64,000 bases of DNA from Janibacter hoylei PVAS-1 (GTDB lineage Bacteria; Actinomycetota; Actinomycetes; Actinomycetales; Dermatophilaceae). The stretch's first letter is position 1. Each line of letters starts with the position of its first letter. The position numbers and the translations under genes are program-made. Of the stretch, positions 1 through 34,299 are shown in pieces. The notes beneath the pieces are model-generated. The model was not told where the DNA came from and searched no databases. It worked only from the letters and a program-made list of their open reading frames with translations. The stretch covers positions 1 through 64,000 of the forward strand of contig NZ_ALWX01000068.1 of the NCBI RefSeq assembly GCF_000297495.1. The letters are read 5' to 3'.

Positions 1-3
1 TCT

Positions 4-816
4 TCACGCCGCGAGCGATAGCCGCCCAGAACGTGACTCGGTCCTGCCGCCACGCGACCGAGGGCCGTCCCGGTGACGGGATCTGTCCTCGATACGCACG
101 GACCCGCTTCTGCCGTGGGGTTGTTCCCATCGCTTCACCTCTCGATCAAGGTGTTGCGACGACCGGTTGAATTCGCCTTGCGAGCCTCGGTCGCTGTGCA
201 CGATGCACCCGGCCACGTCGGCGCCGTCAGCGGCGCGGCGTGCGACGGCTGAGTTCAGCGCGGTGACAGCCAGGTGCGACGTCATGCGTGAGTCGATGCT
301 GTAGCCCACGATCCGCCCGGAGCAGGCGTCCTTGATCGCGCAGAGGTACAGCTTGCCCTCACCGGTCCAGTGCTCAGTAATGTCGGTCAGCCACACCCGA
401 TTCGGTGCCGCCGCGCTGGTGAAGTCATGCGTGACGCGGCCCACCTCGTCCTCGACCGCGAGCCGGCCATCGTGCACCGGTGGTCCGGGCCGCGGACGGG
501 CCGAGCGCTTCTTCCCGAAGATCGACCACCAGGCGTTCGCTGAGCAGATCCGCCACGCCGTGCGAGCCGACATGCCCGTCCCGGCGTCGGCGGCTTCCTC
601 GTGGAGGTATCGGTAACCGAAGGCGGGGTCATCACGGTGAGCGTCGAACAACGCGTTCGCGCGATGCGCCCACGCCAGCTCGGAGGCGGTGACCGGGGAC
701 GTGAGCCACCGGTAGTACTGCGTACGACACAACTTCAGCACCCGGCACGTCACCGACACAGGCACCCGGATCCGGGCTCCCTTGCCAGCCAGCTCGCGGA
801 CGAGCGGGAACATCAT
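4..816 (-). CDS. IS3-family transposase OrfB (DDE integrase core). The C-terminal ~55 aa are atypical, and the third catalytic E is not recognisable.
   Basis: 'VWLTDITEH...GKLYLCAIKDACSGRIVGYSIDSRM...HSDRGSQ' matches the D..D part of the DDE core. The sequence after HSDRGSQ diverges from the expected SMSRKGN..DNA..ESFF pattern. The copy is probably 3'-degenerate or truncated. Confidence 0.7.
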   Translation of the reverse strand: MMFPLVRELAGKGARIRVPVSVTCRVLKLCRTQYYRWLTSPVTASELAWAHRANALFDAHRDDPAFGYRYLHEEAADAGTGMSARTAWRICSANAWWSIFGKKRSARPRPGPPVHDGRLAVEDEVGRVTHDFTSAAAPNRVWLTDITEHWTGEGKLYLCAIKDACSGRIVGYSIDSRMTSHLAVTALNSAVARRAADGADVAGCIVHSDRGSQGEFNRSSQHLDREVKRWEQPHGRSGSVRIEDRSRHRDGPRSRGGRTESRSGRLSLAA

Positions 817-1142
817 TTTGGGGGCAGGTTCGCCTGCGACAAGTACGCCGCCGCGCGCCGCAACACCTCGTTCTCTTGCTCCAGCAATCGGTTACGGCGC
901 TCGAGCTCACGCAGCTCGGCTGCCTGCTCACTCGTCACGGCCGGCGCGGTGCCGTCCTCGACGTCGGCGCGTTTGAGCCAGTTGGTCAGGCACGACTCGC
1001 TGATCCCGAAGTCAGCAGCAATCTGCTTCAACTGCTGACCCGGCTCACGGTTGCGAGCGACCCGCACGACATCGTCACGAAACTCTTTGGGGTAGGGCTT
1101 GGGCACGGTGTCCATCCTTCCAGCAGCGTCCCTCGACGCCAC
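813..1142 (-). CDS. IS3-family transposase OrfA (HTH).
   Basis: 109 aa. Contains '...LKQIAADFGISESCLTNWLKR...' HTH and a coiled-coil 'ELRELERRNRLLEQENEVLRRAAAYL' typical of IS3 OrfA. Its stop overlaps the orfB ATG (CCCCCAAAATGATG). Confidence 0.8.
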   Translation of the reverse strand: MASRDAAGRMDTVPKPYPKEFRDDVVRVARNREPGQQLKQIAADFGISESCLTNWLKRADVEDGTAPAVTSEQAAELRELERRNRLLEQENEVLRRAAAYLSQANLPPK

Positions 1143-1238
1143 AGATCAGATGTCACCTATCCGTGCAGCAGTCCCAGCCCCGGCATTTGGCAGTCCCGCT
1201 AGGTCGACATGGATGAAGCAATCTGGCTTGGTGAGGAG

Positions 1239-3206
1239 TCAGGGTGCCTGGTCCGCGTCGTCGGCTGGGTCATCTACCGTCGGTTCGGACGTTGACGGCC
1301 CTGTGGCTGGCCATCTCTCGGACACGGCCCAGGTCGTGAGTGCAGCGAGTCGCTCCTCGATGGCCTTAGCGGTCCAGCTGGGCCATTTCTCGGCGACCTC
1401 GCGTTCGCTCGCCAAGGCTGCTGTGAAGTAGCACGGGGGCTGCGTCTGACCGGTCTTGCCGCGTTTCTCGACGTACTCCTTGTTGCTGTAGGAGCTGTTG
1501 TCCATCGTCAGAATCAAGTTGCCCAGCGAATGCGTGTGACTCTTTCGCTCATCGTCACTGAAGATGTCCCGCCAAGACCCCGCGTAAGTGGGCGACGCTT
1601 TGTCGATGTCTTTCGGGTTGCGGGGCAGGATGTGCTCGGTGGTCTTCTCAAAGTTCTTCGTGAAGGTCTCGAACGGCTTCAGTACGGCGACCGTCTTCCC
1701 CTTCGACAGTTCGTACTCATAGAGGACATACTTGTGGGAGCTCCGCACATACCAGTTGGTCTCCACCGTGAGGTTGTTTCGCACGAGGCTGTCCGGTGCG
1801 TACTCCCAGGTCAGTGAACCGACTCGCGTGACGGCGTCACCGATTGAGGTCGATCCCTTAAAGACCTGATGCGCCAGACCAGCCAGAGCCTGCCTGCCCG
1901 CGCCGGATCTACGCGCGCAGATGGCAAAAACGCGTGCCGCGAAGGTTTCGCACGCGACGAGTACATCTGCGTAGCCGGCGGCGTTGCCGGGGGACGCCAG
2001 ACGGGTCGCGAACAGTAGGGGGAGGAACTGAGCAACGACCCCGCTGCGGACAAGAGCTTGCGAGTTCCTGGACACGCGAGCGATGTCCGCGGGGTCGGCT
2101 GTCGACGATGCGAATGCTGTTGAGGTCCCCTCCAGATCGCGAAGGAACGCAGAGCATTGCCAGAGCTGGTCGACGTAGTCGGAGACGTCGTCGAACAGCC
2201 GCTGCCGCATTGCTTCTGGGTCGGTCCTGTCGCCTGCATCGTCATCGCGGAGGCGTTGAGAGCCGTGAACGTAGTGCGTACGTGGGAACTTCTTCTTGAT
2301 CGACTCAGACCGCTCCCACAGGCGGATGTTCGGCTCCTGGGTGGCTAGCCAGTGTGAACGGAGGAGTCGGTCCTCGCTGTCGGACGGGAGTCCAGCCAGG
2401 TTCTTGAACACGCCCGACCATCGTTCGTTGATCAGATCCGCGAGCTTCGTTCTGCGAACGTCGTCGAGCTGGGACGCGAGGTAGAGAAGGTAATTCTTGA
2501 TCTTCTCAAGATCGGTGAGGAGGATCCCGCGGTCGTTGAGCGTCTCGAAGATGACGCCCACTTCGGCAGTCGACTTGATCGGATAGACAAGCAACTGGAG
2601 ACCGGACGTGAGGCGGCGCCGGAGGTCCAGCAGGCGCCCTGCGGCGACTTCAGGTGCTGCACCCTCCACGAGTTCCACGAGTCGCTGGTCAAAGAAGGTC
2701 GCGGCACGGAGCAACCTGCGTGCAGACGCGATGGGGTCACTGGGTGCCGGAAGGTCTTCAATGATGTGATCGCGCCAGAAGCCTCGGAGGTCTGTCCCTA
2801 GTTGGAGCCGTGGCTCCTGCGTGCCCAGAAGTTGAATGCGCACGAGGGCGCCGATCTGACGCTTGGCTTCGAGTACGCCATCAGCCAGTCCCTCGTCCGT
2901 GACGCCCTGAATCTGGTCGAGTGCCTTCGCCAGACGAGTCATGAGGATCGTTACGGTCGTGAGACGCTGCTGACCATCGACGACCTCGTACTCCTTCAGA
3001 GTCTCGCCAGCTGACGTGGTCTTCTTATGTCCGGTCTCTCGCAACACCAGCGTGCCGGCGAAATGTTCGCCATCGCCAAGCAGGTCAAGGTCGCCCCACA
3101 GGTCGCCAAGTTGCTTGTCAGTCCAAGCGTACGGCCGCTGGTAGTCCGCAATGACGAAGGTCTTGTCGTCGAGCGCCTTTTTCAGCGACTCGTGTTCCTG
3201 CGGCAT
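1239..3206 (-). CDS. DUF262 (ParB-like, DGQQR) plus DUF1524 (His-Me/HNH-like) nuclease. This is a GmrSD-family type IV restriction-like protein.
   Basis: N-terminal 'IADYQRPYAWTDKQLGDLW...DGQQRLTT' (DUF262). C-terminal '...HILPRNP...HSLGNLILT' (DUF1524). The start was chosen at M58 of the 712-aa ORF (ATG at 3204-3206) because the upstream extension overlaps the macro gene. Confidence 0.75.
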   Translation of the reverse strand: MPQEHESLKKALDDKTFVIADYQRPYAWTDKQLGDLWGDLDLLGDGEHFAGTLVLRETGHKKTTSAGETLKEYEVVDGQQRLTTVTILMTRLAKALDQIQGVTDEGLADGVLEAKRQIGALVRIQLLGTQEPRLQLGTDLRGFWRDHIIEDLPAPSDPIASARRLLRAATFFDQRLVELVEGAAPEVAAGRLLDLRRRLTSGLQLLVYPIKSTAEVGVIFETLNDRGILLTDLEKIKNYLLYLASQLDDVRRTKLADLINERWSGVFKNLAGLPSDSEDRLLRSHWLATQEPNIRLWERSESIKKKFPRTHYVHGSQRLRDDDAGDRTDPEAMRQRLFDDVSDYVDQLWQCSAFLRDLEGTSTAFASSTADPADIARVSRNSQALVRSGVVAQFLPLLFATRLASPGNAAGYADVLVACETFAARVFAICARRSGAGRQALAGLAHQVFKGSTSIGDAVTRVGSLTWEYAPDSLVRNNLTVETNWYVRSSHKYVLYEYELSKGKTVAVLKPFETFTKNFEKTTEHILPRNPKDIDKASPTYAGSWRDIFSDDERKSHTHSLGNLILTMDNSSYSNKEYVEKRGKTGQTQPPCYFTAALASEREVAEKWPSWTAKAIEERLAALTTWAVSERWPATGPSTSEPTVDDPADDADQAP

Positions 3207-3207
3207 G

Positions 3208-3663
3208 TCAGTGAATCCAATCTTCGGCTTGGCTCGCCAGCGAGCGAGCGATCGCGGCATAGGTGGGCTGGCCGAATGCGACCAGGCGGGCTTCATCAAC
3301 AGCACTGGACGCAGCGTTGAGCGCCTCCACCGCCGCGGCGATTGCGTCTTCCTTCGGCCAGCCGTAGGTATCAGCACTGACTAGGGGGAAGGCGACACTG
3401 CGGGCACCGAGCTCGTCCGCGTGCCCCAAGGCACGCGTGTAGCGCGAGGTCAGGTGGTCTCGGTCGGTCTCGCCTGCCATCGTCCATCCGGTGTCGCCGG
3501 CGTCCAGTCCGTTGGGAAAGCGGGTGATGTAGTCCTCGGGGATCGCCGAGCCACCAGCCGTATGGATCGCCCCATCGACGCCTCGTATTCGCCGGTTTGC
3601 CGCGTTGACGACCGCATCCACCTCCTGGGTGGTGATGTCTCCCTCTACGACGGTGATCAACAC
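3208..3663 (-). CDS. Stand-alone macro domain protein (151 aa).
   Basis: 'VVEGDITTQEVDAVVNAANRRIRGVDGAIHTAGG' and '[29 protein letters not shown]' are macro-domain motifs. Its stop (TGA at 3208-3210) overlaps the GmrSD ATG as ATGA, implying translational coupling. Confidence 0.8.
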   Translation of the reverse strand: MLITVVEGDITTQEVDAVVNAANRRIRGVDGAIHTAGGSAIPEDYITRFPNGLDAGDTGWTMAGETDRDHLTSRYTRALGHADELGARSVAFPLVSADTYGWPKEDAIAAAVEALNAASSAVDEARLVAFGQPTYAAIARSLASQAEDWIH

Positions 3664-3860
3664 GCCGGCAATACTAGTGGGAACCGCCGACAGCGCGAGG
3701 ACGAGTTTGCGTTTCCCGAGCCTTCCTTCTTGACCACACCGCGCGTCCTCTTGGGCAGGTCAATCGGTGGCTGGTAGTCGTCGATGCGGTCGTAGACGTC
3801 GTAGTTGAGACTGCGCTCGGCGAGTTCTATATGCCCTTGGGTGGCGGCGACCTTGATCAG
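3664..3860 (-). pseudogene. Start-less ORF fragment immediately upstream of the macro gene, likely a degraded upstream gene.
   Basis: The minus-strand frame reads 'LNLIKVAATQGHIELAERSLNYDVYDRIDDYQPPIDLPKRTRGVVKKEG...' and is preceded by an in-frame stop. There is no ATG or GTG start. It ends at the macro start. Confidence 0.3.
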
Positions 3861-4800
3861 GTTGAGTCAGTTGACCTCGTCCTACGGCGCTGCCTCACAG
3901 GCGATCCCTGAGGCCACCTGGCGGTGTCGAGGTGGGACTGGGCTTGGCTGCGACAGCGACGATGTGGGCGCATGCGCTCGACGATTTCGTGGAGCTGGTT
4001 GCCCTCGGAGAGCCACGCCCACCCGTCCTTGCGGGGGTTGCTGATCGGCTTCCTGGCCACGAGACTGAGCTCGAGCTTCAGGCCGTTGATCCCGTCCGCT
4101 CCGCAAGCTTGGCCTCGGGCTCTCAGGAGGCGGAAGAGAGCTACGTCGACGAGGAGACCGTGCAACGTATAGCCGTTGTCGACAACGTTCTCCGGCGTGT
4201 TCAGGCAGCTTCTCGGTGCATGAGTTCGCCCGTGCGAGGGTCCGCGCCGAACCAGTCCCGGATCGTGCTCAGGTCGGTGCGCTCCCGGGACCGCTTGATG
4301 CCGGACGCCGCGGCGAGGTTGCGGTTGAAGACGCGCTCGGGGTGGAGCGAGAGATCGTCGACGGTGCGCCACGGGCCCGAGGTGCGGGTCGTTTCTCCTG
4401 CGGTTACAACGCCGCGTCTGCGGCTTCCCAGGCACCTGCTCCTTCGGTGTGTGCTCATCCTCGTTTCCAAGGTCACGAGCCTCTATAGGGCCGAGTGCGG
4501 TTCAAAGGTCGACGCGCAGGTCACCATAGCTTCGACGGTGGCGACCGCGCTATCGACATGATCGGCTGAAAGGTCGTCTAGACAGGGTGCGCAGAGTCCC
4601 TGTCCTCGACCGCCCGTGTGACTGCTGCCCCTCGTCGAGTGGCGCTGTACGGCCCTTCCTATTGGGTGGCAGGAGGCACGGTTCATGCCCGAGATGGACC
4701 TACCAGCCGAAGCACCCGTGACCGAGGCTTCACCCCGTCTGGAGACGGACGACGAGTTCGCAGCGGCGTAAGGCGAGTGATGGCGGAGGAGATCGGTGCA
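3857..4800. other. Decayed, lower-GC region carrying only short ORF fragments on both strands, with no intact gene.
   Basis: Fragments such as '...SNPRKDGWAWLSEGNQLHEIVERM...' and '...ERVFNRNLAAASGIKRSRERTDLSTIRDWFGADPRTGELMHREAA' have no recognisable full domain. GC is visibly lower than in the core region. Confidence 0.3.
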
Positions 4801-4821
4801 GTTGTTGTCCGCCGGGCGCAT

Positions 4822-5412
4822 TCAAGCGGAATCGAGGGCTTGCTGAGCAACACTTCGAGATGAGGCCCACGTCTTGTGTGCCATACGAAGGCCGAGCCGC
4901 TGCGACATCCGAGGGTGCTCGCGCTCCATTCGTGTGTAGGCCGACTTTAAGTTGGTCGTGTACAGCAGATCGCGCAGGAGCAGGACCTCGAACGCGGCCG
5001 CCTCGACGAAGTCCACCGTCTTGGTGTACCCGACGACTGCCCTGGCGTTGGTGGCCCGACAGAGGTCTATGAGCTCTTGATCCTTGGCGGCCATCGTCGA
5101 GCACGAGGCGAAGAACAAGACCTTGTCCTCACACCTGCTCCCGAGAATCTCAGCGAACTCCTTGATCGTCACGCCTTCATCGCCGAACCAGAGCTGCCCA
5201 CGAGCGCCGTGACAGACGAAGTAGCCGATGGGCATCGAGGTGAGCCGACGCCATTTCTTTGCATAGAACTCGAGGGCGTCCCTTGTCGCGACGTTGCGGT
5301 GGACGTAGGGGGTCCCTTCGCAGTCCTGGAGAAGGCCGAGCACTGGCTCGACGGTCCGTCGGTCGCGGGCAGGGCCCCATTCACCTTCGAAGCAGTAGAT
5401 CCCTTGTGCCAT
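4822..5412 (-). CDS. Hypothetical protein with a caspase/hemoglobinase-fold-like (clan CD) His...Cys arrangement.
   Basis: 196 aa. A beta-strand then HG ('IGYFVCHGARG') is followed ~35 aa later by a hydrophobic strand plus Cys ('KVLFFASCSTM'). This mirrors the caspase 'SHG ... QACRG' order. It lies in the lower-GC island. Confidence 0.3.
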   Translation of the reverse strand: MAQGIYCFEGEWGPARDRRTVEPVLGLLQDCEGTPYVHRNVATRDALEFYAKKWRRLTSMPIGYFVCHGARGQLWFGDEGVTIKEFAEILGSRCEDKVLFFASCSTMAAKDQELIDLCRATNARAVVGYTKTVDFVEAAAFEVLLLRDLLYTTNLKSAYTRMEREHPRMSQRLGLRMAHKTWASSRSVAQQALDSA

Positions 5413-5516
5413 GTATGAACACTTGTGGTCCCTCGGTGGGGTGTCAAACGCTCAGCCGGATCATTGTCGGTGGTCCCACCTACGCTGTGGAGCAGGTCGA
5501 CGGAGGGGAGTGGCTG

Positions 5517-6386
5517 ATGTTCGATCAGCGGGTCGAGGCAGCGTGGAGGGACTTCCACGAGCGTCTCGTGGTGGCCATCGAACGGTTCGGCGAGGGCGAG
5601 ATCTTCCGGATCTCACTCGACCGCACGAGCGTCTACGAGGCGGGGGACGCTCCCTTCGTCGAGCTCAACGTCGTCCTGCCGCAGGTGCTCGTCGAGGTCG
5701 CCTCCAACATGACCTTGGCTCGTACGTGGCGCATGAGTCGCACCCAGCAGGCGAGGGTCCGCCGGCTGGGCATGGCGTGCCCGACGCGGCAGGAGCCGAC
5801 CTACGGCAAGTACTACGACATCACGCGGCCCGACGAGGCGGCCGCTGCGGTTATCACGGCACTGCGCGAAGGGTTCGGTGTCCTCGACCCGGCGCTCCTC
5901 ACCAGCCCGAGCCCCGTCCTGACTCCACCCACGCGCGAGCCCTGGGAGACCAGCCCGCTGCTCGCCGACGGCGCCCGACCCACCAGCCGGGCAGAGGTCA
6001 ATGCCCTCGTCGCCATCGCCCTTCGCCCGCTCGTGGGTGAGGTGGACACCACGGATGACGGTGACGCCATCGTCCACTTCCCCGGCACGTCGATCCTGGT
6101 GCGGCCGTCGAGGCGCGCACCGCGCATCCGCATGTGCTGCACGCTGCCGCACCACGAGCGTGACCTCGACGAGGCCACCCGGATCGCCCAGCGGCTCAAC
6201 GGGTGCATGCACGCGCTCAAGTTCGTCGTGCTCGACGACGAGGACTTCCTCGTCATGGTCGACATGCTCGCCAGACCCTTCGTGCCCGAGCACGTGCTGG
6301 AGCACGTGGAGCACCTCTTCCGGATCATCGACGGCTGGGAGGACGAGTTCCTCCCCGAGGCGCGCGATCGACAGGAGACGACGTGA
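5517..6386 (+). CDS. Tandem YbjN/T3SS-chaperone-like ('TY-Chap') domain protein.
   Basis: 289 aa from ATG 5517. It has two similar halves with an acidic C-terminus. Its stop overlaps the GTG of the next gene (GTGA), indicating an operon. Confidence 0.4.
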   Translation: MFDQRVEAAWRDFHERLVVAIERFGEGEIFRISLDRTSVYEAGDAPFVELNVVLPQVLVEVASNMTLARTWRMSRTQQARVRRLGMACPTRQEPTYGKYYDITRPDEAAAAVITALREGFGVLDPALLTSPSPVLTPPTREPWETSPLLADGARPTSRAEVNALVAIALRPLVGEVDTTDDGDAIVHFPGTSILVRPSRRAPRIRMCCTLPHHERDLDEATRIAQRLNGCMHALKFVVLDDEDFLVMVDMLARPFVPEHVLEHVEHLFRIIDGWEDEFLPEARDRQETT

Positions 6387-11635: not shown

Positions 11636-12661
11636 TCACGCCCCCCAGCCCACAAGCAGGACCAGCGCCAGCGAGGTGCCTGCGGCGATGATCGTCGAGA
11701 TCGTCGCGAGGGTGAGCACCTGCAGCGGCAGCGGCCACAGGTCACGGGCGCGGATGCCCATGCCGAGGCCGTACATGCCGGCCGCGAGCAGCAGCGTCGT
11801 CAGCACATCGGCGACCGACAGGACCCCCTGCGGCAGCAGGCCGCTCGTGCGGACCGCGACGGCGACGACGAAGGCGACGATGAACCACGGCACAAGGGGG
11901 GTGGTCGCTCCCTTCGCCCCGGGGGTGGTGCGGGCGAGCACGGCCGACAGCGGTGCGAGCAGGGCGACCCGGCCGAGCTTGACCGTCATGGCCAGCGCCA
12001 CGGCGGACGTGCCGATGAGCGAGCCCGCCGCGGCCACCTGCGCGACCTCGTGGATGCTCGCGCCGGCCCAGATCGCCGCCTGCTCATCGCTCAGGCCGAT
12101 GACTCCCGCGAGCCACGGCACGGCGGCGATCATCGCCGAGCCATAGAGGGTGACCATGGCGACGGCCAGGGCCACGTGCTGCTGCCTGGCCCGGACGGTG
12201 TCCTCGACGGCGGCGATCGCCGCGGCGCCGCAGATCGAAAATCCCGTGGCGATGAGCAGGACCAGCCCCTCCTCGAGGCCGAGGCGACGACCGATGTATC
12301 GCGTCCCCGTGAAGGTCGCGAGCACCGTGACCGCGATGACGACGAGCCCGCTCGGGCCGATCGAGACGATGTCGGCGAAGGGGAGGCGCAGCCCGAGCGC
12401 GGCCACGCCCAGCCGGAGGAGGAACTTCGTGGCGGCGTCGTGACCGGCGATGGCCGGGAGGGTGCCCAGGCGGCTGTTGACCACGACCGCGCCGATGGCC
12501 AGGGCGATGAGCAGGGGGCCGAGCAGCGGGACCACCGTGCTCAGGGCCAACGCCGTTGCGGCAGCGGCCAGCGGCGCGACGAGCGTCGCTGCCGACCGTC
12601 GCTCCCTGAGGAGCTTGCGCAGCAAGCGTCTCGAAGGGGGCCGTCCGGTCATCGTCTGCAT
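11636..12661 (-). CDS. yeiH: YeiH/UPF0324 family membrane protein (putative sulfate exporter).
   Basis: Polytopic membrane protein. Divergent from a LysR regulator, the classic yeiE-yeiH arrangement. Start taken at the internal ATG (MQTMTGRPP). Confidence 0.7.
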   Translation of the reverse strand: MQTMTGRPPSRRLLRKLLRERRSAATLVAPLAAAATALALSTVVPLLGPLLIALAIGAVVVNSRLGTLPAIAGHDAATKFLLRLGVAALGLRLPFADIVSIGPSGLVVIAVTVLATFTGTRYIGRRLGLEEGLVLLIATGFSICGAAAIAAVEDTVRARQQHVALAVAMVTLYGSAMIAAVPWLAGVIGLSDEQAAIWAGASIHEVAQVAAAGSLIGTSAVALAMTVKLGRVALLAPLSAVLARTTPGAKGATTPLVPWFIVAFVVAVAVRTSGLLPQGVLSVADVLTTLLLAAGMYGLGMGIRARDLWPLPLQVLTLATISTIIAAGTSLALVLLVGWGA

Positions 12662-17858: not shown

Positions 17859-18212
17859 TCGCCTCGAAGCGCTCAGCCATCCGGGCGGCGAGGGCCTGCG
17901 AGGCCTTGAGCGGGCGGGTCATGACCATGAACTCGGTGACCTTGCCCTCGTCGTCGAGAGTGAGGAAGTCGCAGCCGGTGATCTCGAGCCCGTCGACCGT
18001 GGCCTCGAGACATAGGCCTCCTCCGACCCGTCACGCAGCTGGCGCACGTAGCGGAAGTCCTCGAAGACCTCCACGACCTCGCGCAGGATCGCGCTCGTGA
18101 TCGCCTTGCCGGGGTAGGGGGTGTGGGCGACCGGGCTGCGGAAGACGACGTCCTCCGCGAGCAGCTCGTCCACCGCGTCGAGGTCCTTGGCTTCCACTGC
18201 GTCTCGGAACAT
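17830..18212 (-). CDS. NTF2/SnoaL-like small protein, with one internal frameshift (~18010).
   Basis: N-terminal part 'MFRDAVEAKDLDAVDELLAEDVVFRSPVAHTPYPGK'. C-terminal part in the other frame is '...LEATVDGLEITGCDFLTLDDEGKVTEFMVMTRPLKA...'. Its 3' end overlaps the GDSL gene 3' end by ~28 bp. Confidence 0.5.
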
Positions 18213-18315
18213 GCAGCCAACCTACTCAACAAAGTGAATAAGAGGAACCTCTCGGTCCCTGAGGAGGGAGGCCGTCCGCGGCCGACTGTCTCGAAGGGAC
18301 GCCTACCATCACCCC

Positions 18316-18876
18316 ATGGCCCTCCAGGACGCGATCCTCACCGCACTCGCCCACGACGAGTCCTCCGGCTACGACCTGGCCAAGGCCTTCGACGTGTCCG
18401 TCGCCAACTACTGGACCGCGAGCCCGCAGCAGCTCTACCGCGAGCTGGACAAGATGGAGGATGCGGGGCTGGTCACCGCGCGCACCGTCGCCCAGCCCAA
18501 GCGGCCGGACAAGCGGGTCTTTCGCCTGACGTCGGCGGGGCGCAAGGCGTTGCGGGCGCACACCCTTCGCTCGCCCAAGCCCTTGGCCGTCCGCGACGAG
18601 CTGCTCGTACAGGTCGCGGCGCTCGAGTCCGGTGACCCCGAGGCGATCCGCGAGCACGTCGTCGAGCGGATGGAGGCCTTCGAGGCGAAGCTCGCGATCT
18701 ACCGCCTCGTCGAGGAGCGGACCCTCGCCGGCCGCACCGAGGAGGAGTTCCTCGCGTCGGGCGAGCCGGTCGGGCAGTACCTCACCCTGCTGCGGGGGAT
18801 CAGCTTCGAGGAGGAAAACCTGCGCTGGGGCCGGCGGGTGCTCGCCGTCCTCGACGCTCGCTCGACCACCGACTGA
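18316..18876 (+). CDS. PadR-family transcriptional regulator.
   Basis: 'ILTALAHDESSGYDLAKAF......WTASPQQLYRELDKMEDAGLV' winged helix. Confidence 0.85.
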   Translation: MALQDAILTALAHDESSGYDLAKAFDVSVANYWTASPQQLYRELDKMEDAGLVTARTVAQPKRPDKRVFRLTSAGRKALRAHTLRSPKPLAVRDELLVQVAALESGDPEAIREHVVERMEAFEAKLAIYRLVEERTLAGRTEEEFLASGEPVGQYLTLLRGISFEEENLRWGRRVLAVLDARSTTD

Positions 18877-18881
18877 CCCCC

Positions 18882-19000
18882 TGCGCATTTCCCTAGGGAA
18901 ATGCGCACGCTTCCCGTATTTCCCTAGGGAAATGCGCACCCCGGCCGTATTTGCCTAGGGAAATGCGCACCCCTGCCGTATTTGCCTAGGGAAATGCGCA
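18882..19000. repeat. Four tandem copies (~31-bp period) of a 24-bp palindromic element (GCGCA)TTTCCCTAGGGAAATGCGCA.
   Basis: Copies at 18882-18907, 18915-18938, 18946-18969 and 18977-19000. The core TTTCCCTAGGGAAA is a perfect palindrome. A fifth copy, CGCATTTACCTAGGGAAATGCG, is at 34249-34270. The array sits in the convergent PadR/SPFH intergenic region. Confidence 0.8.
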
Positions 19001-19010
19001 GGCCCGGGCA

Positions 19011-19055
19011 TGACGAAGGGGGCCGCCCCGGTCTCCCGGCGCGGCCCCCTTCGGT
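19011..19055. terminator. Hairpin GAAGGGGGCCGCCCCGG...CCGGCGCGGCCCCCTTC (GACGAAGGGGG family).
   Basis: Lies between the repeat array and the 3' end of the minus-strand SPFH gene. It can terminate either convergent transcript. Confidence 0.55.
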
Positions 19056-19064
19056 CGGGTGTCG

Positions 19065-20439
19065 TCAGCCCTGCGACTTCTCCTGCACGGCCTGGGCTGC
19101 TCGCTGCGCAGCCTGGTTGACCGCACCGCTCACCTGACGCTGCGCGCTGCGGGGAGCGGAGGCCTCGGACTGCAGCTGCGGCAGCAGCTGGGCCATGAGC
19201 AGCGTCGACAGGGCCGAGCTGTCGCCCGAGCCGGCGTCGGTGTGGACGATGACCGGGCGCGGGGCGTCGTCGGCCAGCGTGGCGCCGACGTCGAGGCGGC
19301 GCCGGGCCAGCTCGTAGCCGAGGACCGCGCGGTTGTCGCGGTAGGCCGTGGCCAGCTGCTCCTGCGCCTTGGCCTCACCCTGGGCCGCGACGAGGTTGGT
19401 CCGCGCGCGGGTCTCGATCTCGTAGCGGATCTTCTGCGCCTCGGTCTCGCGCTCCTCGAGCATCTGCGCGACGTCCTTGCGGGCCTTGTTGAGCGAGGCC
19501 TGGACCTCGACGACCTTGGCGTCGCGGACCTTCTTGGAGCGCTCGATCTCCAGCAGCAGGGTGTCGATGCGGCGCTTGCGGGTCAGCTCCCACTCCTTTT
19601 CGTAGGCCACGAGCTCCTTGGCCACCCGCTCACGCGTGGCGAGGTGCTCCCGGTACTGGTCGGGCAGCTGCACGTCGGGGATGTTGCAGCCCATGATCTG
19701 CACGCCGTAGCGGGTCAGCTGACGGTTGAGCAGGTCCTGCATGTCCTTGACGTCGCTGCCGCGCAGGTCGTAGGCCTGCTCGGTGCGCACCTGCCGGCTG
19801 CGCTGCCGGATCGCGTCCTGCACCGAGTTGCTCAGCACGAGGTCGAAGTTGCCCGCACCGATCGTCTGGACGAAACGGATCGCGTCGACGATGCGGAAGC
19901 GCAGGAAGAACTCGATCGACTTCAGCGGCACGTTTTCGTGCGTCGGCGAGCTGAGCACCGGTGCGGTGTAGGGGATCTCGGTCGTCACGTCGACGACATA
20001 GGCGACCCGGGCCCACGGGTGCCACAGGTAGTGGCGGCCGGGGGGAGAGGCCGGGCCCGGAGATGGCGCCGAACTTCGTCAGCACCCCGACCGTGCCCTC
20101 CTCGATCTCGACGATCGAGGAGCGCCACCACCACAGTGCCGACAGGAGGAAGGCGAGGATCGCGACGAAGATCGCGAGCCCGCCGAGTGCGCCGTGGTCG
20201 GTCGCCGCGAGGAAGATCCCGCTCAGCAGGGCCCACGCGCCGAACCAGATGAGCGAGGTCCAGCGCATGCCGCGCTTGTCCTTGGGGATGACAACCGGCA
20301 CGACCGAGCCGGAGTCACCGCCGCGCAGGTAGCGGGCGACGTCGCCCCACCCGGAGACGACCTCCTTGATCGAGCTCATGCCCTGGCCACGCACTGCGCG
20401 GACCGCCTGCTCCATCATCTGGTCACTCATTGCGCTCAC
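19065..20439 (-). CDS. SPFH/band-7 domain membrane protein, with one G-run frameshift near 20035.
   Basis: N-terminal TM plus 'IVEIEEGTVGVLTKFG'. Continues in the other frame with '...EIPYTAPVLSSPTHENVPLKSIEFFLRFRIVDA...' and a long coiled-coil C-terminus. Confidence 0.7.
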
Positions 20440-22246: not shown

Positions 22247-22330
22247 GGGGGAGCGCTCCCCATCTTCGCTCTCTGAGGCGGTCGCGCAGCGCTCCCCACC
22301 TTCGCTCCCTGAGGAGGTCGCGCAGCGACC
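22247..22330 (-). promoter_or_regulatory. Two tandem ~40-bp units containing the palindrome GGGGAGCGCTCCCC and CTGAGG boxes, upstream of the SPFH operon.
   Basis: Perfect palindrome at 22247-22261, with CTGAGG at 22273 and 22309. The second unit has a half-site GCGCAGCGCTCCCCA. The same composite occurs at 10087-10116. Confidence 0.45.
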
Positions 22331-22342
22331 GTCTCGAAGGGG

Positions 22343-31788: not shown

Positions 31789-33031
31789 GTGGTGCCCGTG
31801 ACCACGACACCACGGCGCCGCATCGCCTTCTACTCCCACGACACCCAGGGGCTAGGCCACATCCGCCGCAACCTCGCCCTCGCCGGGGCGATCGTCGCGG
31901 CCGACCCGCGCACCGACGTCCTCGTGCTCACCGGCGCACCGCAGGCGACCTCGCTGCCGCTGCCGCCCCACACCGAGGTCATCACCGTGCCGACGGTGGC
32001 CAAGGACAGCGACGGGGGATACGCCGCCGCCACCTTCGCCATGGACCTCGACGCGCTGCTCACCCTGCGCTCCAACGTCATCACCACGGCACTCACGAGC
32101 TTCGCCCCCGATGTCGTCGTCGTGGACAAGGTCGCCCGCGGTCTCGACGGTGAGCTCGAGCAGGCGCTCGAGGCGCTGCACGCCGTCCGAGGGCACACCA
32201 CCGGCGCCCGCCCCCCGCGTCGTCCTCGGCCTGCGCGACATCCTTGACGACCCGCTGACCGCGGCCCGCGAGTGGCGCTCGTCCCGCACGACGCAGGCGA
32301 TCCGCGACCACTACGACGAGGTCTGGGTCTACGGCGACAGTGACGTCGTCGACGTCGTCGCCGACTACGAGCTGCCGCCCACCGTCGCCCGCCGGGTCCG
32401 CTACACCGGCTACCTCGTTGACGGGCGGTCCGAGGGGCTCATCCCGCCCCGCGACGAACCACCCGCCGGCCCCGTGCCGCGCCCCTACGTCCTGTGCATG
32501 GTCGGCGGCGGGCAGGACGGCTACGACACCGCCCTCGCCTTCGCCCACGCGACCTACCCGACCGGTCGGACCGGCGTCATCATCACCGGCCCGTACATGC
32601 AGCCCTCCCTGCGCCTGCGGCTGCAGGAGATCGCCGACGGCTGTGACGACCTCGTCGTGCGCGAGTTCGTCACCGACGCCGTCGAGCTCGTCGCCGGCGC
32701 CGACGCGGTCGTCTCCATGGGCGGCTACAACACTGTGTGCGAGGTGCTCACGGGCAACGTGCCCGCGCTCATCGTCCCGAGGGTGCGCCCCCGCCAGGAG
32801 CAGCTCGTGCGCGCCGACCGGCTGAGCGGTCTCGGCCTCGTCGACGCGCTGCACCCCGAACTCGTCACGCCGCACGCGCTCGCCGGCTGGCTCGAGCAGG
32901 CGACGGGGGCCCCCTTCGTCCGGGACCGGCAGACCATCGCGCTCGGCGGGCTGCGCCGGGTGCCCCACCTGCTCACCCGGCTCCACCGCACCGCCGCGAC
33001 CCACGCCGCCGACCTCGAGGAGGCCAGCTGA
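31789..33031 (+). CDS. GT-B glycosyltransferase (COG4671-like), with a C-run frameshift near 32205.
   Basis: N-terminal 'RIAFYSHDTQGLGHIRRNLALAGAI'. C-terminal half 'VVSMGGYNTVCEVL'. Confidence 0.6.
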
Positions 33032-34299
33032 TGTCCACGCCCACCCCGCGCGTCGGGTACGTGCTGAAGATGTACCCGCGCTTCTCCGAGACCTTCATCG
33101 TCCACGAGATCCTCCAGCAGGAGGCCCTCGGCACCCACGTCGAGATCTTCTCGCTGCGGCTGCCGATCGACGGGCGCTTCCACGAGCTGCTCGCCCGGGT
33201 GCAGGCGCCCGTCACCTACCTCTCCCGCGAGCACAAGGCCAGCCTCTTCTGGTCCGGGCTGCGGGCCGCAGCAGCCGAGGTGCCGCAGGTCGCCGACCAC
33301 CTCGACGAGCTGCTCGCCGCACCCGAGGACGTCGCCCTGGCCGCCGTCGAGCTTGCCGGCGCGGTGCGCCGCTCGGGGCTGGAGCACCTGCACGCGCACT
33401 TCGGCTCGATCGCCGCCGACGTCGCCCGGATCGCCGCGCGCCTCACGGGCATCACGTGGTCCTTCACGGCGCACGCCAAGGACATCTTCCACGAGGAGGT
33501 CGTGCCCGCCGAGCTGGCCACCAAGCTGCGCGAGGCGCACACGACCGTGACCGTGAGCGAGTACAACCGGCGCCACCTGCAGCGCGAGTTCGGCGCCGCC
33601 GCCGACCGGGTCACCCGGCTGTACAACAGCGTCGACCTGCAGGCCTTCCCCTTCGCGACGAAGGGGGAGACCGCCGGCCCCGACCGCATCGCCGCCGTCG
33701 GACGGCTCGTGGAGAAGAAGGGCTTCGGTGACCTGCTCACCGCCGTCGCCGAGCTCGTCGGCGCCGGCAGGGACGTGCACGTCGACCTCGTCGGCACCGG
33801 CCCCCTCGAGGCGACGCTGCGCGAGCGCATCGGCGAGCTCGGGCTGGGCGACGTCGTGACGATGCACGGCGCGCTCCCGCAGTCCCGGGTCCGTGAGATC
33901 GTCGCTGCCGCGGACGTCTTCGCCGCCCCGTGCGTCGTCGGCGCCGACGGCAACCGTGACGGCCTGCCCACCGTGCTCCTCGAGGCCCTGGCGCTCGGCA
34001 CGCCGTGCGTCTCGACCCCCGTCACCGGCATCCCCGAGATCGTGCGCCACGAGGAGACCGGGCTGCTCGCCCCCGAGAGCGACCCCGCGGCGCTCGGGCA
34101 GGCCATCGCCCGCGTCCTCGACGACCCCGAGACCGCGGCCGGGTGGGCTCGGGCCGCGCGCCGCCTGCTCGAGGCGGACTTCGACTTCCGCGACCACGCC
34201 CGGGAGCTGCAGGGGATCTTCGCCGCCGCCATCGCCTCCCAGGACGACCGCATTTACCTAGGGAAATGCGCATCCGAGGGCGGGAGCGCGGTCGCATGA
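33031..34299 (+). CDS. Glycosyltransferase family 1 (GT4-like).
   Basis: 'RLVEKKGF', 'LVGTGP', 'EGLPTVLLEALALGTPCVSTPVTGIPEIV' (the EX7E region). Start and stop overlap the neighbouring genes. The C-terminal 8 codons include the palindromic element. Confidence 0.8.
   Translation: MSTPTPRVGYVLKMYPRFSETFIVHEILQQEALGTHVEIFSLRLPIDGRFHELLARVQAPVTYLSREHKASLFWSGLRAAAAEVPQVADHLDELLAAPEDVALAAVELAGAVRRSGLEHLHAHFGSIAADVARIAARLTGITWSFTAHAKDIFHEEVVPAELATKLREAHTTVTVSEYNRRHLQREFGAAADRVTRLYNSVDLQAFPFATKGETAGPDRIAAVGRLVEKKGFGDLLTAVAELVGAGRDVHVDLVGTGPLEATLRERIGELGLGDVVTMHGALPQSRVREIVAAADVFAAPCVVGADGNRDGLPTVLLEALALGTPCVSTPVTGIPEIVRHEETGLLAPESDPAALGQAIARVLDDPETAAGWARAARRLLEADFDFRDHARELQGIFAAAIASQDDRIYLGKCASEGGSAVA

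What the first reader, a model, noticed from the sequence alone, without database searches (positions are those of the whole stretch)
18882..19055. Array of four 24-bp palindromic elements (TTTCCCTAGGGAAATGCGCA) plus a fifth copy embedded in a glycosyltransferase 3' end
Four near-identical palindromes with ~31-bp periodicity lie between the convergent padR and SPFH genes, followed by a GC hairpin. A fifth copy (CGCATTTACCTAGGGAAATGCG, 34249-34270) lies inside the last codons of the GT1 gene, where it encodes '...RIYLGKCA...' just before the ATGA-overlapping next gene. The CTAG-containing core is atypical for high-GC actinobacteria. This looks like a REP/BIME-like or MITE-like mobile palindrome family, or a multimerised operator.
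Basis: seen in the sequence. Interest (0 to 1): 0.55.

Follow-up and report, generated by a model that had tools for sequence, protein, structure and literature searches.

The report
Dispersed palindromic repeat arrays in Janibacter
The four palindromes are real and belong to an undescribed family of short hairpin-forming repeats, found just after genes at dozens of sites in Janibacter genomes and varying in copy number between strains, much like the REP/BIME repeats of E. coli.

Summary
Window 18882-19000 holds four head-to-tail 31-bp units, each with the 16-bp core ATTT(C/G)CCTAGGGAAAT. A fifth copy lies at 34249-34272, in the last codons of a GT4 glycosyltransferase gene. The organism is Janibacter hoylei.

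The array is not a one-off local duplication.
- A truncated metagenome scan returned about 50 high-GC contigs with arrays of 1-5 units, spaced 31-32 bp, at about 36 different loci. One low-coverage sample alone had at least 10 loci.
- Arrays lie mostly 10-35 nt after stop codons, between convergent or same-direction genes, and often next to GC terminator-like hairpins.
- Copy number differs between strains: 4 versus 2 units in two J. hoylei assemblies.
- The glycosyltransferase site is empty in more distant Janibacter species.
- In J. indicus and strain YB324 both orthologous sites carry one variant, ATTGCCCTACGGCAAT. It keeps the palindrome through matched changes in both arms.

Best reading: a REP/BIME-like dispersed palindromic repeat family that behaves like a variable-number tandem repeat and is probably transcribed as 3' hairpins. 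A PadR operator and a MITE are not supported. A REP-associated transposase (RAYT) could not be tested. It is a new member of a known kind, of moderate interest.

The parts
18316..18876 (+). PadR-family regulator gene (context). Its stop codon lies 5 nt before the first palindrome.
   Evidence: Pfam PadR + Vir_act_alpha_C; ORF listed.
18878..19002 (.). The whole array: four 31-bp head-to-tail units, bounded by the inverted ends CCCCTGCGC ... GCGCAGG.
   Evidence: TRF period 31, 4.0 copies, score 190; the repeat finder families D1/D8.
18882..18907 (.). Unit 1: perfect 26-bp palindrome TGCGCATTTCCCTAGGGAAATGCGCA (core 18887-18902).
   Evidence: Inverted repeat I8, 13-nt arms, 100% complementary. 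RNA hairpin -18.5 kcal/mol, z -5.2.
18914..18938 (.). Unit 2: CCGT-ATTTCCCTAGGGAAAT-GCGCA (core 18918-18933).
   Evidence: RNA hairpin -11.5 kcal/mol, z -4.1.
18945..18969 (.). Unit 3: CCGT-ATTTGCCTAGGGAAAT-GCGCA (core 18949-18964, with one G/G mismatch).
   Evidence: The hairpin on its own is weak: -8.3 kcal/mol, z -0.6.
18976..19002 (.). Unit 4: CCGT-ATTTGCCTAGGGAAAT-GCGCAGG (core 18980-18995).
   Evidence: (I2: pairs with the unit 1 region at 92%).
19014..19053 (.). GC-rich hairpin made of an inverted pair of the over-represented 9-mer CGAAGGGGG. It is a likely bidirectional terminator shared with the Band_7 operon and is not part of the repeat family.
   Evidence: Inverted repeat I7, 18-nt arms, 94% complementary. 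9-mer hits at 19014 (+) and 19045 (-). No T-tract, so the consensus terminator scan did not call it.
19065..20439 (-). Convergent SPFH/Band_7 gene (context). It is split by a single-base indel in the window's assembly.
   Evidence: An intact 454-aa gene in GCA_004025845.1. The window differs from that assembly only by 5 indels in 20 kb.
34249..34272 (+). Fifth, solitary copy CGCATTTACCTAGGGAAATGCGCA, inside the C-terminal tail of the GT4 gene 33031-34299 and 24 nt before the next GT4 gene's ATG.
   Evidence: The orthologous position in YB324 and L012 carries the variant palindrome. The site is empty in Ca. J. merdipullorum and others.

Best explanation
This is one locus of a Janibacter-specific family of short interspersed palindromic repeats of the REP/BIME kind.

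Anatomy (shown). The basic unit is a hairpin-forming palindrome with consensus CCCTGCGC-ATTTCCCTAGGGAAAT-GCGCACCC. Units occur singly or as head-to-tail arrays of 2-5 with a 31-32-bp period.

Placement (shown). Units and arrays lie in the first 10-35 nt after stop codons, between convergent or co-directional genes, often beside or inside GC terminator hairpins. Occasionally they lie in the dispensable 3' tail of a gene.

Behaviour (shown).
- Family membership at many loci.
- The bias for 3' ends.
- Copy-number polymorphism between strains.
- Presence or absence between species.
- Retention of the palindrome through matched changes in both arms.

How it works (inferred).
- Arrays expand and contract by slipped-strand mispairing or unequal recombination between units.
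- New loci arise by a copying process that needs a sequence-specific factor or gene conversion. This would explain why copies at unlinked loci stay nearly identical, and why two loci carry the same sequence variant.
- Lying between the stop codon and the terminator, the arrays are probably transcribed into the 3' untranslated end of the upstream mRNA. There they would fold into very stable stem-loops that block 3' exonucleases and reinforce termination. Because the first stem begins about 5 nt after the stop codon, they could also interfere with the terminating ribosome, as described for E. coli REPs.
For: Family and dispersal.
- The genome scan found further tandem pairs at non-orthologous convergent spacers in J. 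indicus (hutI-like/rmuC-like) and Ca. J. merdipullorum (rluD-like/XRE).
- The metagenome scan, truncated at 120 rows, gave about 50 contigs of 68-75% GC with 1-5 units. Spacings were 31 bp (37 times) and 32 bp (49 times).
- Flank clustering gave about 36 loci. There were 10 distinct loci in sample ERZ941706 alone.
- The consensus of 142 units has 12 of 16 core positions at 97% or more.

Position.
- Flanks classed as gene ends 59, gene starts 23. About 10 loci were convergent, about 9 co-directional and 0 divergent.
- Stop codons are mostly 10-35 nt from the outer core.
- This matches what Di Nocera et al. report for REPs (PMC3733652) and the REP criteria in PMC12306157.

Copy-number variation.
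- J. hoylei GCA_004025845.1 has 4 units and GCA_025150145.1 has 2.
- Metagenome orthologues differ likewise: 2/2/4, 3/2, 1/2, 4/3/4.

Presence or absence.
- The element-encoded GT tail exists only in hoylei- and YB324-like proteins.
- All other Janibacter orthologues have unrelated tails, and their DNA lacks the palindrome.

Structure.
- The array region folds at -128 kcal/mol as RNA (z -11) and -74 kcal/mol as DNA (z -10).
- Across three subfamilies at orthologous sites, 80% of cells pair against 70% in shuffles. There are 18 double-sided changes against 9.3 expected, reached by 0 of 500 shuffles.
- The protein sequence changes (DRIYLGKCA versus DRIALRQCG) while the palindrome is kept.

Other.
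- An IS5-family element sits exactly in the CTAG centre of a core with CTAG duplicated. This recalls IS insertion into REPs.
- No Rfam family matches.
Against: - No RAYT or other dedicated transposase was seen, though only about 0.5 Mb could be searched, with queries recalled from memory.
- The GTAG and CGTC tags of classical REP superfamilies are absent.
- Copy number appears modest. The strict pattern hit only one locus in each of the J. indicus and Ca. J. merdipullorum reference genomes. None was found in 21-kb samples of J. melonis, J. cremeus and strain GS2.
- Inside the main subfamily, the two variable core positions (3/14 and 5/12) are not compensated. Structure is therefore not the only thing keeping the sequence.
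- The very high sequence conservation of the core, and spacings of about 31, 42 and 51 bp (multiples of a helical turn), would fit a DNA-binding protein equally well.
- There is no expression data. Transcription of the arrays and any effect on mRNA are inferred.
- The gene-context classifier is crude: it relies on GC3 and GC1>GC2 and makes some clear errors.
Confidence: 0.6

Rival explanations
1. The cores are double-stranded binding sites for a sequence-specific dimeric DNA-binding protein, for example a ParB/Noc-like or other helix-turn-helix nucleoid protein. The arrays, phased about three helical turns apart, would load several dimers on one face of the DNA. The family would then mark chromosome positions rather than act in RNA.
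For: - The half-sites ATTTCCC/GGGAAAT are identical to those of the Bacillus subtilis Noc-binding site ATTTCCCGGGAAAT (string confirmed in PMC7383237 and others).
- The core sequence is far more conserved than the flanks: 97-100% at 12 of 16 positions.
- Variable core positions are not compensated, so pairing alone does not explain the conservation.
- Spacings cluster at 30-32, 41-42 and 51 bp, roughly 3, 4 and 5 helical turns.
- The same three substitutions appear at two unlinked loci in the indicus/YB324 lineage. This is what co-evolution with one trans-acting protein would give.
Against: - The two half-sites are 2 bp further apart than in the Noc site. Noc is a Firmicutes protein (my own knowledge).
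- No ParB/Noc-like gene was seen near any array.
- The strict preference for the first nucleotides after stop codons, the C-rich/G-rich extended palindromic flanks, decayed units at array edges and strain-level copy-number change are typical of REP-like repeats, not of regulatory or architectural sites.
- J. indicus carries both core variants, which argues against a simple switch of specificity.
- The conservation figures are inflated by ascertainment, because units were collected by similarity to the core.
Confidence: 0.2
2. The array is a multimerised operator for the adjacent PadR regulator. The core reads ATTT-N8-AAAT, close to the ATGT-N8-ACAT architecture recalled for PadR operators.
For: - The array is adjacent to padR in J. 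hoylei. A palindrome with the same centre sits after padR in J. indicus, G349 and G368.
- The 4-8-4 layout resembles PadR operators (from memory, not tested).
Against: - The site is downstream of padR, between convergent genes.
- The padR promoter region (18213-18315) has no such motif.
- About 36 other loci have unrelated neighbours such as hutI, rluD and glycosyltransferases.
- In Ca. J. merdipullorum the region downstream of padR lacks the element, while an unrelated locus has it.
- The G349/G368 palindrome lacks the ATTT/AAAT arms.
Confidence: 0.03
3. The units are miniature inverted-repeat transposable elements (MITEs), or remnants of one, moved by a DDE transposase encoded elsewhere in the genome.
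For: - Dispersed, short, palindromic, and differing in presence between species.
- An IS5-family element is physically associated with one array.
Against: - The IS in L042 interrupts a core and has unrelated terminal repeats (GGCGTGTCTGNCAAA). It is a guest, not the parent.
- Units have no internal sequence between terminal repeats and no target-site duplication.
- Units multiply head to tail with a fixed 31-32-bp period. Cut-and-paste or copy-in transposition does not produce this pattern.
Confidence: 0.05
4. A purely local tandem duplication plus a chance match in the glycosyltransferase gene, with no family.
For: Inside the 64-kb window there are only these two loci.
Against: - 5 hits against 0.01 expected in the window.
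- Dozens of further loci in other Janibacter genomes and metagenomes share the same consensus, flanks and period.
Confidence: 0.01

Closest known systems
REP elements and their clusters (BIMEs) of Escherichia coli and other Proteobacteria, including REPIN doublets
   Same: - Short (16-34 bp) palindromes with a family consensus.
- Extragenic, concentrated downstream of genes between convergent or co-directional ORFs.
- Often clustered with short conserved linkers, and able to fold into larger hairpins with their neighbours.
- Occasional copies inside genes, and abundance that varies between species.
- Used as IS insertion targets.
Sources.
   Different: - No GTAG or CGTC tag at one end.
- The core is a perfect palindrome centred on CTAG, so unit orientation is ambiguous.
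- Clusters are regular head-to-tail arrays with a strict 31-32-bp period, not alternating Y/Z units.
- At least 10 loci are shown for one population, but not hundreds.
- The host is an actinobacterium (Janibacter, 71% GC).
- No RAYT has been identified.
MIRU-VNTR loci of Mycobacterium tuberculosis (mycobacterial interspersed repetitive units; from memory)
   Same: - An interspersed family of tandem direct repeats in intergenic regions of an actinobacterial genome.
- Dozens of loci.
- The number of units per locus differs between strains: 4 versus 2 in J. hoylei, with similar differences in metagenomes.
   Different: - MIRUs are 40-100 bp, are not palindromic, and mostly lie inside operons, where they overlap stop and start codons.
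- The units here are 31-32 bp, are built around a hairpin, and favour convergent gene ends.
Noc-binding site (NBS) of Bacillus subtilis, ATTTCCCGGGAAAT, and ParB parS sites; also the F plasmid sopC array (from memory)
   Same: - Half-sites ATTTCCC/GGGAAAT are identical to the NBS.
- Sites are dispersed around the chromosome.
- sopC is likewise a tandem array of direct repeats, each holding a 16-bp palindrome bound by a ParB-family protein.
   Different: - A TA dinucleotide is inserted at the centre, so half-sites are 2 bp further apart.
- Noc is not known outside Firmicutes.
- Neither NBS nor parS sites show the stop-codon-proximal placement, the extended GC flanks or the copy-number instability seen here.
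Rickettsia palindromic elements and intragenic REPs (PMC3733652)
   Same: The fifth copy is inside a coding region. It is read in frame as part of a protein tail (DDRIYLGKCA), without destroying the gene.
   Different: There is only one intragenic case in the window, and it lies in a hypervariable C-terminal tail outside the catalytic domain. RPEs are longer (about 100-150 bp).

Membership tests
REP (general definition, PMC12306157) | Located outside coding regions | tested here: met
   Arrays lie between stop codons and neighbouring genes at nearly all loci. One window copy (34249-34272) and perhaps one metagenome locus are intragenic; the REP literature also reports such cases.
REP (general definition, PMC12306157) | Palindromic, able to form a stem-loop | tested here: met
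   Perfect 16-26-bp palindromes. Unit hairpins fold at -11.5 to -18.5 kcal/mol, and the array z-score is -11.
REP (general definition, PMC12306157) | Short (about 14-40 nt) with a common consensus | tested here: met
   Consensus CCCTGCGCATTTCCCTAGGGAAATGCGCACCC from 142 units.
REP (general definition, PMC12306157) | Many copies per genome | tested here: inconclusive
   5 units at 2 loci in 64 kb of J. hoylei. At least 10 loci in one low-coverage metagenome population from a truncated scan. Only 1 locus per reference genome with a strict 18-base pattern. No whole genome could be scanned with a degenerate pattern.
GTAG- or CGTC-tagged REP superfamilies (PMC3733652) | Conserved GTAG or CGTC tetranucleotide at one end of the palindrome | tested here: not met
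   Unit ends are (G/C)CG(C/T) and (G/A)CG(C/G). The only conserved tetranucleotide is CTAG, at the centre.
RAYT-mobilised REP/REPIN | A RAYT (Y1/HUH transposase) gene in the genome, typically flanked by the REPs | not testable with these tools
   tblastn with IS200 TnpA and E. coli RayT sequences, recalled from memory, found nothing in any DNA held (about 0.5 Mb of Janibacter-like sequence).
RAYT-mobilised REP/REPIN | Units occur as inverted doublets that pair with each other | tested here: inconclusive
   Neighbouring units are predicted to pair (24-bp stem). Asymmetric variants occur as inverted neighbours 7 times but as direct neighbours 12 times. The symmetric core hides the orientation.
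BIME | Clusters of REPs separated by conserved linker motifs | tested here: met
   Arrays of 2-5 units with 15-16-nt linkers of the shared form GCGCA-(C or G run)-CCGT/TGCGC.
MITE | Terminal inverted repeats around an internal segment, flanked by a target-site duplication | tested here: not met
   No internal segment and no duplicated flank. The only TIR+TSD structure seen is an IS5-family element inserted into a core.
MIRU-type VNTR | Tandem direct repeats at dispersed intergenic loci, with strain-to-strain differences in unit number | tested here: met
   4 versus 2 units in two J. hoylei assemblies. Orthologous metagenome loci differ in unit number. The unit length (31-32 bp) and the palindromic core differ from MIRUs.
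Noc NBS / ParB parS site | 14-16-bp palindrome of two abutting half-sites, bound by a ParB-family protein encoded in the genome | tested here: not met
   The half-site sequence matches the NBS, but the half-sites are separated by an extra TA. No ParB-family gene was seen in any locus annotation. Binding is not testable here.
PadR operator | Inverted repeat in the promoter of the regulated gene or of padR itself | tested here: not met
   The array is downstream of padR. There is no related motif at 18190-18330. Most loci have no padR neighbour.
Canonical intrinsic terminator | GC-rich stem-loop followed by a T/U tract | tested here: not met
   The consensus scan found none in 18500-19400. Units are followed by GCGCA and C/G runs, not by T runs.
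Any curated RNA family (Rfam 15) | Score at or above the family's gathering threshold | tested here: not met
   No hit in the whole window. Only far sub-threshold matches appear at 18700-19200.

The most novel reading that the evidence does not exclude
The cores are not passive REP-like hairpins. They would be phased landing pads for a sequence-specific protein that recognises the same half-site as Noc (ATTTCCC) at a different spacing. This would be an actinobacterial ParB/Noc-like or unrelated nucleoid-organising system that marks convergent gene ends. The concerted switch to ATTGCCCTACGGCAAT at two unlinked loci would record co-evolution of the protein and its sites.
Probability: 0.1. Interest if true: 0.7.

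Novelty: new member of a known kind. Interest (0 to 1): 0.38.

Why it matters
- REP-type repeats are well studied in Proteobacteria but hardly described in high-GC Actinobacteria. I found no paper describing this motif or any REP family in Janibacter.
- The family offers ready-made VNTR markers for typing Janibacter hoylei and J. indicus, which occur in air, clean rooms and clinical samples.
- It shows a case where a gene's C-terminal tail is written by a repeat element.
- The same three-base variant at two unlinked loci points to a trans-acting factor or to gene conversion, and either could be looked for.
- For genome annotators, these arrays explain spurious short ORFs and assembly breaks at gene ends.
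- It does not change any general principle.

Tried and rejected
- Rfam, at gathering threshold on the whole window and at E-value threshold on 18700-19200: nothing meaningful.
- Consensus promoter and terminator scan of 18500-19400: nothing.
- Literature search for the motif strings: only unrelated eukaryotic or viral primer matches. Searches for Janibacter plus REP, and for REPIN/RAYT plus Actinobacteria: nothing relevant.
- Viral contig scan for the 16-mer: 25 single hits. The one high-GC case (L027) lacks the family's flanks and has no tandem partner; the others are in contigs below 62% GC, so I take them as chance. The same holds for the Trinickia and Parabacteroides hits of the genome scan and for four solitary hits in high-GC metagenome contigs.
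- tblastn with IS200 TnpA and E. coli RayT, recalled from memory, against all DNA held: only noise.
- Peptide trick: I searched the protein database with the peptides the array encodes (RISLGKCA, FPREMR) to find ORFs that read through arrays. 201 word-sharing candidates, none with E of 10 or less.
- PadR operator idea: rejected on position and on the lack of a site in the padR promoter.
- CRISPR-like reading (22-bp repeat plus 9-bp spacer): rejected. The spacers are too short and resemble each other.
- Contig L112 joins the padR end to the inverted glycosyltransferase end through one core. That would mean a 15-kb inversion between the two window copies. However, the rest of this 1.2x-coverage contig matches neither region, so I treat it as a probable assembly chimera.
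- Test for strand-specific G-U wobble or for compensation inside units: no signal.
- Orientation of neighbouring asymmetric units: mixed.
Full report
**1. What is in the window**

The padR-family gene (18316-18876, + strand; Pfam PadR + Vir_act_alpha_C) ends with TGA at 18874-18876. Five bases later begins TGCGCATTTCCCTAGGGAAATGCGCA, a perfect 26-bp palindrome (I8). Three more units follow at exactly 31-bp steps, with cores at 18918, 18949 and 18980.

- Units 2-4 read CCGT-core-GCGCA. Cores 3 and 4 carry a G at position 5 (ATTTGCC...), which breaks the palindrome at one pair.
- Tandem Repeats Finder scores the array 190: period 31, 4.0 copies.
- The 14-mer with up to 2 mismatches occurs 5 times in the window against 0.01 expected.
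- Thirteen bases after the array comes a separate GC hairpin (19014-19053). Eleven bases further on is the stop codon of the convergent SPFH/Band_7 gene.
- The fifth copy (34249-34272, core ATTTACCTAGGGAAAT) lies in the last codons of a GT4 glycosyltransferase gene (33031-34299). It falls after the end of the Pfam domains and encodes ...DDRIYLGKCA.... It sits 24 nt before the ATG of the next GT4 gene, which overlaps the stop codon as ATGA.
- No other copy with up to 4 substitutions exists in the 64 kb.

The refinement is that the object is a 31-bp direct tandem repeat that contains a palindrome.

**2. Source organism**

The PadR protein is encoded, identically, on contig PIPF01000007.1 of GCA_004025845.1. 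Band_7 homologues name the species as Janibacter hoylei. Over 20 kb the window differs from that assembly only by five single-base indels. One of them splits the Band_7 gene in the window.

**3. It is a family, not a local accident**

Genome collection. An exact-pattern scan of one genome per species returned two Janibacter loci and two chance hits.
- In J. indicus, two units 32 bp apart lie between the stop codon of a hutI-like gene and a convergent rmuC-like gene.
- In Ca. J. merdipullorum, two units 30 bp apart lie between an rluD-like stop codon and a convergent XRE-type gene.

Metagenome collection. About 50 of the contigs are 68-75% GC and carry 1-5 units each.
- Unit spacings are 31 bp (37 times) and 32 bp (49 times), with a few at 30, 41-42, 51 and 61.
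- Clustering the flanks gives about 36 different loci.
- Single samples hold many distinct loci at similar coverage: 10 in ERZ941706, 8 in ERZ1023261 and 7 in ERZ1023359.
- Where the contigs overlap reference loci they are 74-97% identical to Janibacter DNA, so several species are involved.
- Solitary hits in low-GC or unrelated contigs lack the family's flanks and are chance matches.

**4. Anatomy of the family**

The consensus of 142 units, oriented so that the linkers are C-rich, is CCCTGCGC-ATTTCCCTAGGGAAAT-GCGCACCC.
- Twelve of the sixteen core positions are conserved at 97% or more. Collecting units by similarity to the core inflates this figure.
- Positions 3/14 and 5/12 vary and are not compensated within a unit.
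- Two kinds of flank occur: GCGC-core-GCGC and CCGT-core-ACGG.
- Whole arrays are bounded by the inverted ends CCCC..GCGC and GCGC..GGGG, often directly abutting TGA stop codons on both sides (tgaCCCC...GGGGtca).
- Array edges often show decayed units.
- As single strands the arrays are extremely structured. The window region folds at -128 kcal/mol as RNA (z -11) and -74 kcal/mol as DNA (z -10), with neighbouring units pairing into 24-bp stems.
- Single units range from -18.5 kcal/mol (unit 1) to -8 kcal/mol (unit 3 and the glycosyltransferase copy).

**5. Where the arrays sit**

I used a crude coding-strand classifier (GC3 high, GC1>GC2).
- Array flanks are gene ends 59 times and gene starts 23 times.
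- Among loci with both sides classified, about 10 are convergent, about 9 co-directional and none divergent.
- Stop codons are mostly 10-35 nt from the outer core.

This is the distribution reported for REPs. They lie predominantly between convergent and unidirectional ORFs and downstream of coding regions, are plausibly transcribed, and include some intragenic copies (PMC3733652).

Arrays also co-occur with GC hairpins built from the 9-mer CGAAGGGGG. The 9-mer is present within 45 nt of 32% of array flanks, against 5.8% of random 45-nt windows.

**6. Dynamics**

(a) Copy number varies between strains. J. hoylei GCA_025150145.1 has 2 units where GCA_004025845.1 and the window have 4. Orthologous metagenome loci differ likewise: 2/2/4, 3/2, 1/2, 4/3/4.

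(b) Presence varies between species. Among glycosyltransferase orthologues, only the hoylei-type (RIYLGKCA) and YB324-type (RIALRQCG) proteins have an element-encoded tail. All others have unrelated, hypervariable tails. The DNA of Ca. J. merdipullorum and of another Janibacter contig has no palindrome there.

(c) Two loci changed in concert. In J. indicus (padR spacer) and in YB324/L012 (glycosyltransferase tail) the orthologous copies read ATTGCCCTACGGCAAT.
- This differs from the hoylei core by the same three substitutions at both loci. Two of them are a matched pair that keeps the stem.
- The protein changes while the palindrome is preserved.
- J. indicus still has the canonical core at the hutI locus, so these are subfamilies rather than a wholesale switch.

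(d) A third form exists. In strains G349 and G368 the same position after padR holds CTCTGCA(A/G)AACCCTAGGGTCTTGCAGAG, with the same centre and different arms that are again complementary.

(e) A formal pair count on 13 units of the three forms gives 80% paired cells against 70% in shuffles. There are 18 double-sided changes against 9.3 expected, reached by 0 of 500 shuffles, and slid registers fall to 28-49%. The sequences are related, so this count is not a probability. Symmetric protein sites would behave the same way.

(f) At the hutI locus the two-unit array is kept between genomes whose flanking DNA is only 87% identical.

(g) An IS5-family element (DUF4096 + DDE_Tnp_1) is inserted exactly in the CTAG centre of a core, with CTAG duplicated.

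**7. Interpretation**

The features under points 3-6 fit the general definition of REP elements and their clusters (PMC12306157; PMC3733652).

Copies at unlinked loci are nearly identical, and the same variant occurs at two loci. A hairpin evolving independently at each site cannot explain this. Either copying between loci (transposition or gene conversion) or a sequence-specific trans-acting factor is implied.

The proposed mechanism is inferred, in three parts.
- Arrays grow and shrink by slippage.
- They lie between the stop codon and the terminator, so they are transcribed into mRNA 3' ends. There they form stable stem-loops that protect against 3' exonucleases and help termination.
- The first stem starts about 5 nt after the padR stop codon, so it could impede the terminating ribosome. 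This was reported for E. coli REPs within 15 nt of a stop codon (my recollection of Liang, Rudd and Deutscher 2015, not checked here).

**8. What does not fit, and the rivals**

- There is no GTAG or CGTC tag.
- No RAYT was seen, but the test was weak.
- Copy number may be only tens.
- The main rival is a double-stranded binding site for a dimeric protein. The half-site equals that of the B. subtilis Noc-binding site ATTTCCCGGGAAAT. The core sequence, not only its pairing, is conserved, and the spacings are near multiples of a helical turn. Against it stand the extra central TA, the 3'-end placement, the decayed edge units, the strain-level copy-number change and the coexistence of two core variants in J. 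indicus. I give it about 0.2.
- A PadR operator (0.03), a MITE (0.05) and a purely local duplication (0.01) are not supported, for the reasons given under each rival.

**9. Novelty and score**

I found no description of this motif or of any REP family in Janibacter. It is a new member of a known kind. The regular head-to-tail 31-32-bp arrays, the perfect CTAG-centred core and the concerted variant are unusual details, but not a new principle. Interest 0.38.

**10. Seen in passing**

The most striking side observation is the 9-mer CGAAGGGGG.
- It has 40 copies in the window (20 on each strand) against 1 expected, and is the most frequent 9-mer of the window.
- It is present in all six frame and orientation classes inside genes.
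- It forms inverted pairs at gene ends.
- It is equally dense in other Janibacter DNA.

Statistically it behaves like a DNA uptake sequence. I found no literature on it.

Noticed in passing
window, 40 sites, e.g. 14574/14608, 19014/19045, 34893/34909, 61851/61882; also L002 and L005-L013, and L159-L162: The 9-mer CGAAGGGGG (reverse complement CCCCCTTCG) occurs 40 times in 64 kb, 20 on each strand, against 1.04 expected. It is the most frequent 9-mer of the window; same-composition permutations have a median of 1 copy. The extended consensus is (g)(a/g)CGAAGGGGG(c/g). It lies inside genes in all six frame and orientation classes, and inverted pairs form the GC hairpins after genes. Density is 0.5-0.9 per kb in most other Janibacter loci (range 0.19-1.29). 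This is the statistical behaviour of a DNA uptake sequence (Neisseria DUS, Haemophilus USS). I know of none described in Actinobacteria, and a literature search for the string found nothing relevant.
   Followed up: partly
window 12580-12639, 18250-18298, 22252-22342; L008 downstream of Band_7; L162: A second dispersed repeat, CGCTCCCTGAGGAG-(N)-GCGCAGC-(N)-CGTCTCGAAGGGG. It has three loci in the window, one of them a 36-bp tandem duplication (TRF score 131), and it recurs in other Janibacter species' spacers. Here it lies near gene starts and in divergent regions, unlike the palindrome family.
   Followed up: partly
L042:175-1200 (metagenome contig ERZ1023324 NODE_4751): An IS5-family insertion sequence (DUF4096 + DDE_Tnp_1 ORFs, terminal repeats GGCGTGTCTGNCAAA) is inserted exactly in the CTAG centre of a palindrome core, with CTAG duplicated on both sides. 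In a genome poor in CTAG, the repeat family supplies target sites for this IS.
   Followed up: yes
window 1-6000: A lower-GC island (62-65% against 71%) carries a truncated IS3-type integrase (rve, 4-816 -), a GmrSD-type restriction endonuclease (1239-3377 -), a Macro-domain protein (3208-3663 -) and a DUF6642 protein (4822-5412 -). It is probably a horizontally acquired defence island.
   Followed up: partly
window 8315-28878, e.g. Band_7 gene 19065-20439: The window differs from GCA_004025845.1 by 5 single-base indels and no substitutions over 20.5 kb. One indel splits the 454-aa Band_7 gene into two frames. These are most likely sequencing or assembly errors in one of the two assemblies.
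   Followed up: yes
L006:11369-11681 and L159:11366-11675 (Janibacter sp. G349, G368): A tandem duplication of about 152-156 bp copies the last ~40 bp of padR, the palindrome and the GC hairpin. The spacer therefore holds two copies of the padR 3' end.
   Followed up: no
L007:11378-11560 (J. indicus padR/Band_7 spacer): A further, unrelated 36-bp tandem repeat (GGTCGAGGTG(T/C)GAGGCCGCCCGCCAACCGTCACGTT, about 2.5 copies) lies between the palindromes and the Band_7 stop codon. Janibacter spacers seem generally prone to minisatellite formation.
   Followed up: no
C-terminal tails of GT4 orthologues P0121-P0159; L013:2870-3000: The last 15-25 residues of this glycosyltransferase are hypervariable across Janibacter species, between a conserved ...IFREAIAS... 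and a conserved ...EREVA end. One species has an 18-bp tandem duplication there. The gene junction appears to be a hot spot for repeats and slippage.
   Followed up: partly
L112 (ERZ1023242 NODE_10032, 1524 bp): This contig joins the padR 3' end (window 18524-18905) to the inverted glycosyltransferase 3' end (window 34272-34115) through a single core. That would correspond to inversion of the 15-kb segment between the two window copies. Coverage is 1.2x and the rest of the contig matches neither region, so it is probably an assembly chimera.
   Followed up: partly
window 47130-47339 and 47633-47751: In-frame 27-bp (7.8 copies, TRF score 273) and 15/30/51-bp tandem repeats lie inside the 616-aa minus-strand ORF 46167-48017, together with a 220-bp internal duplication (47378-47597 / 47786-48005, 88% identical). 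This looks like a repetitive linker region of a multidomain protein.
   Followed up: no
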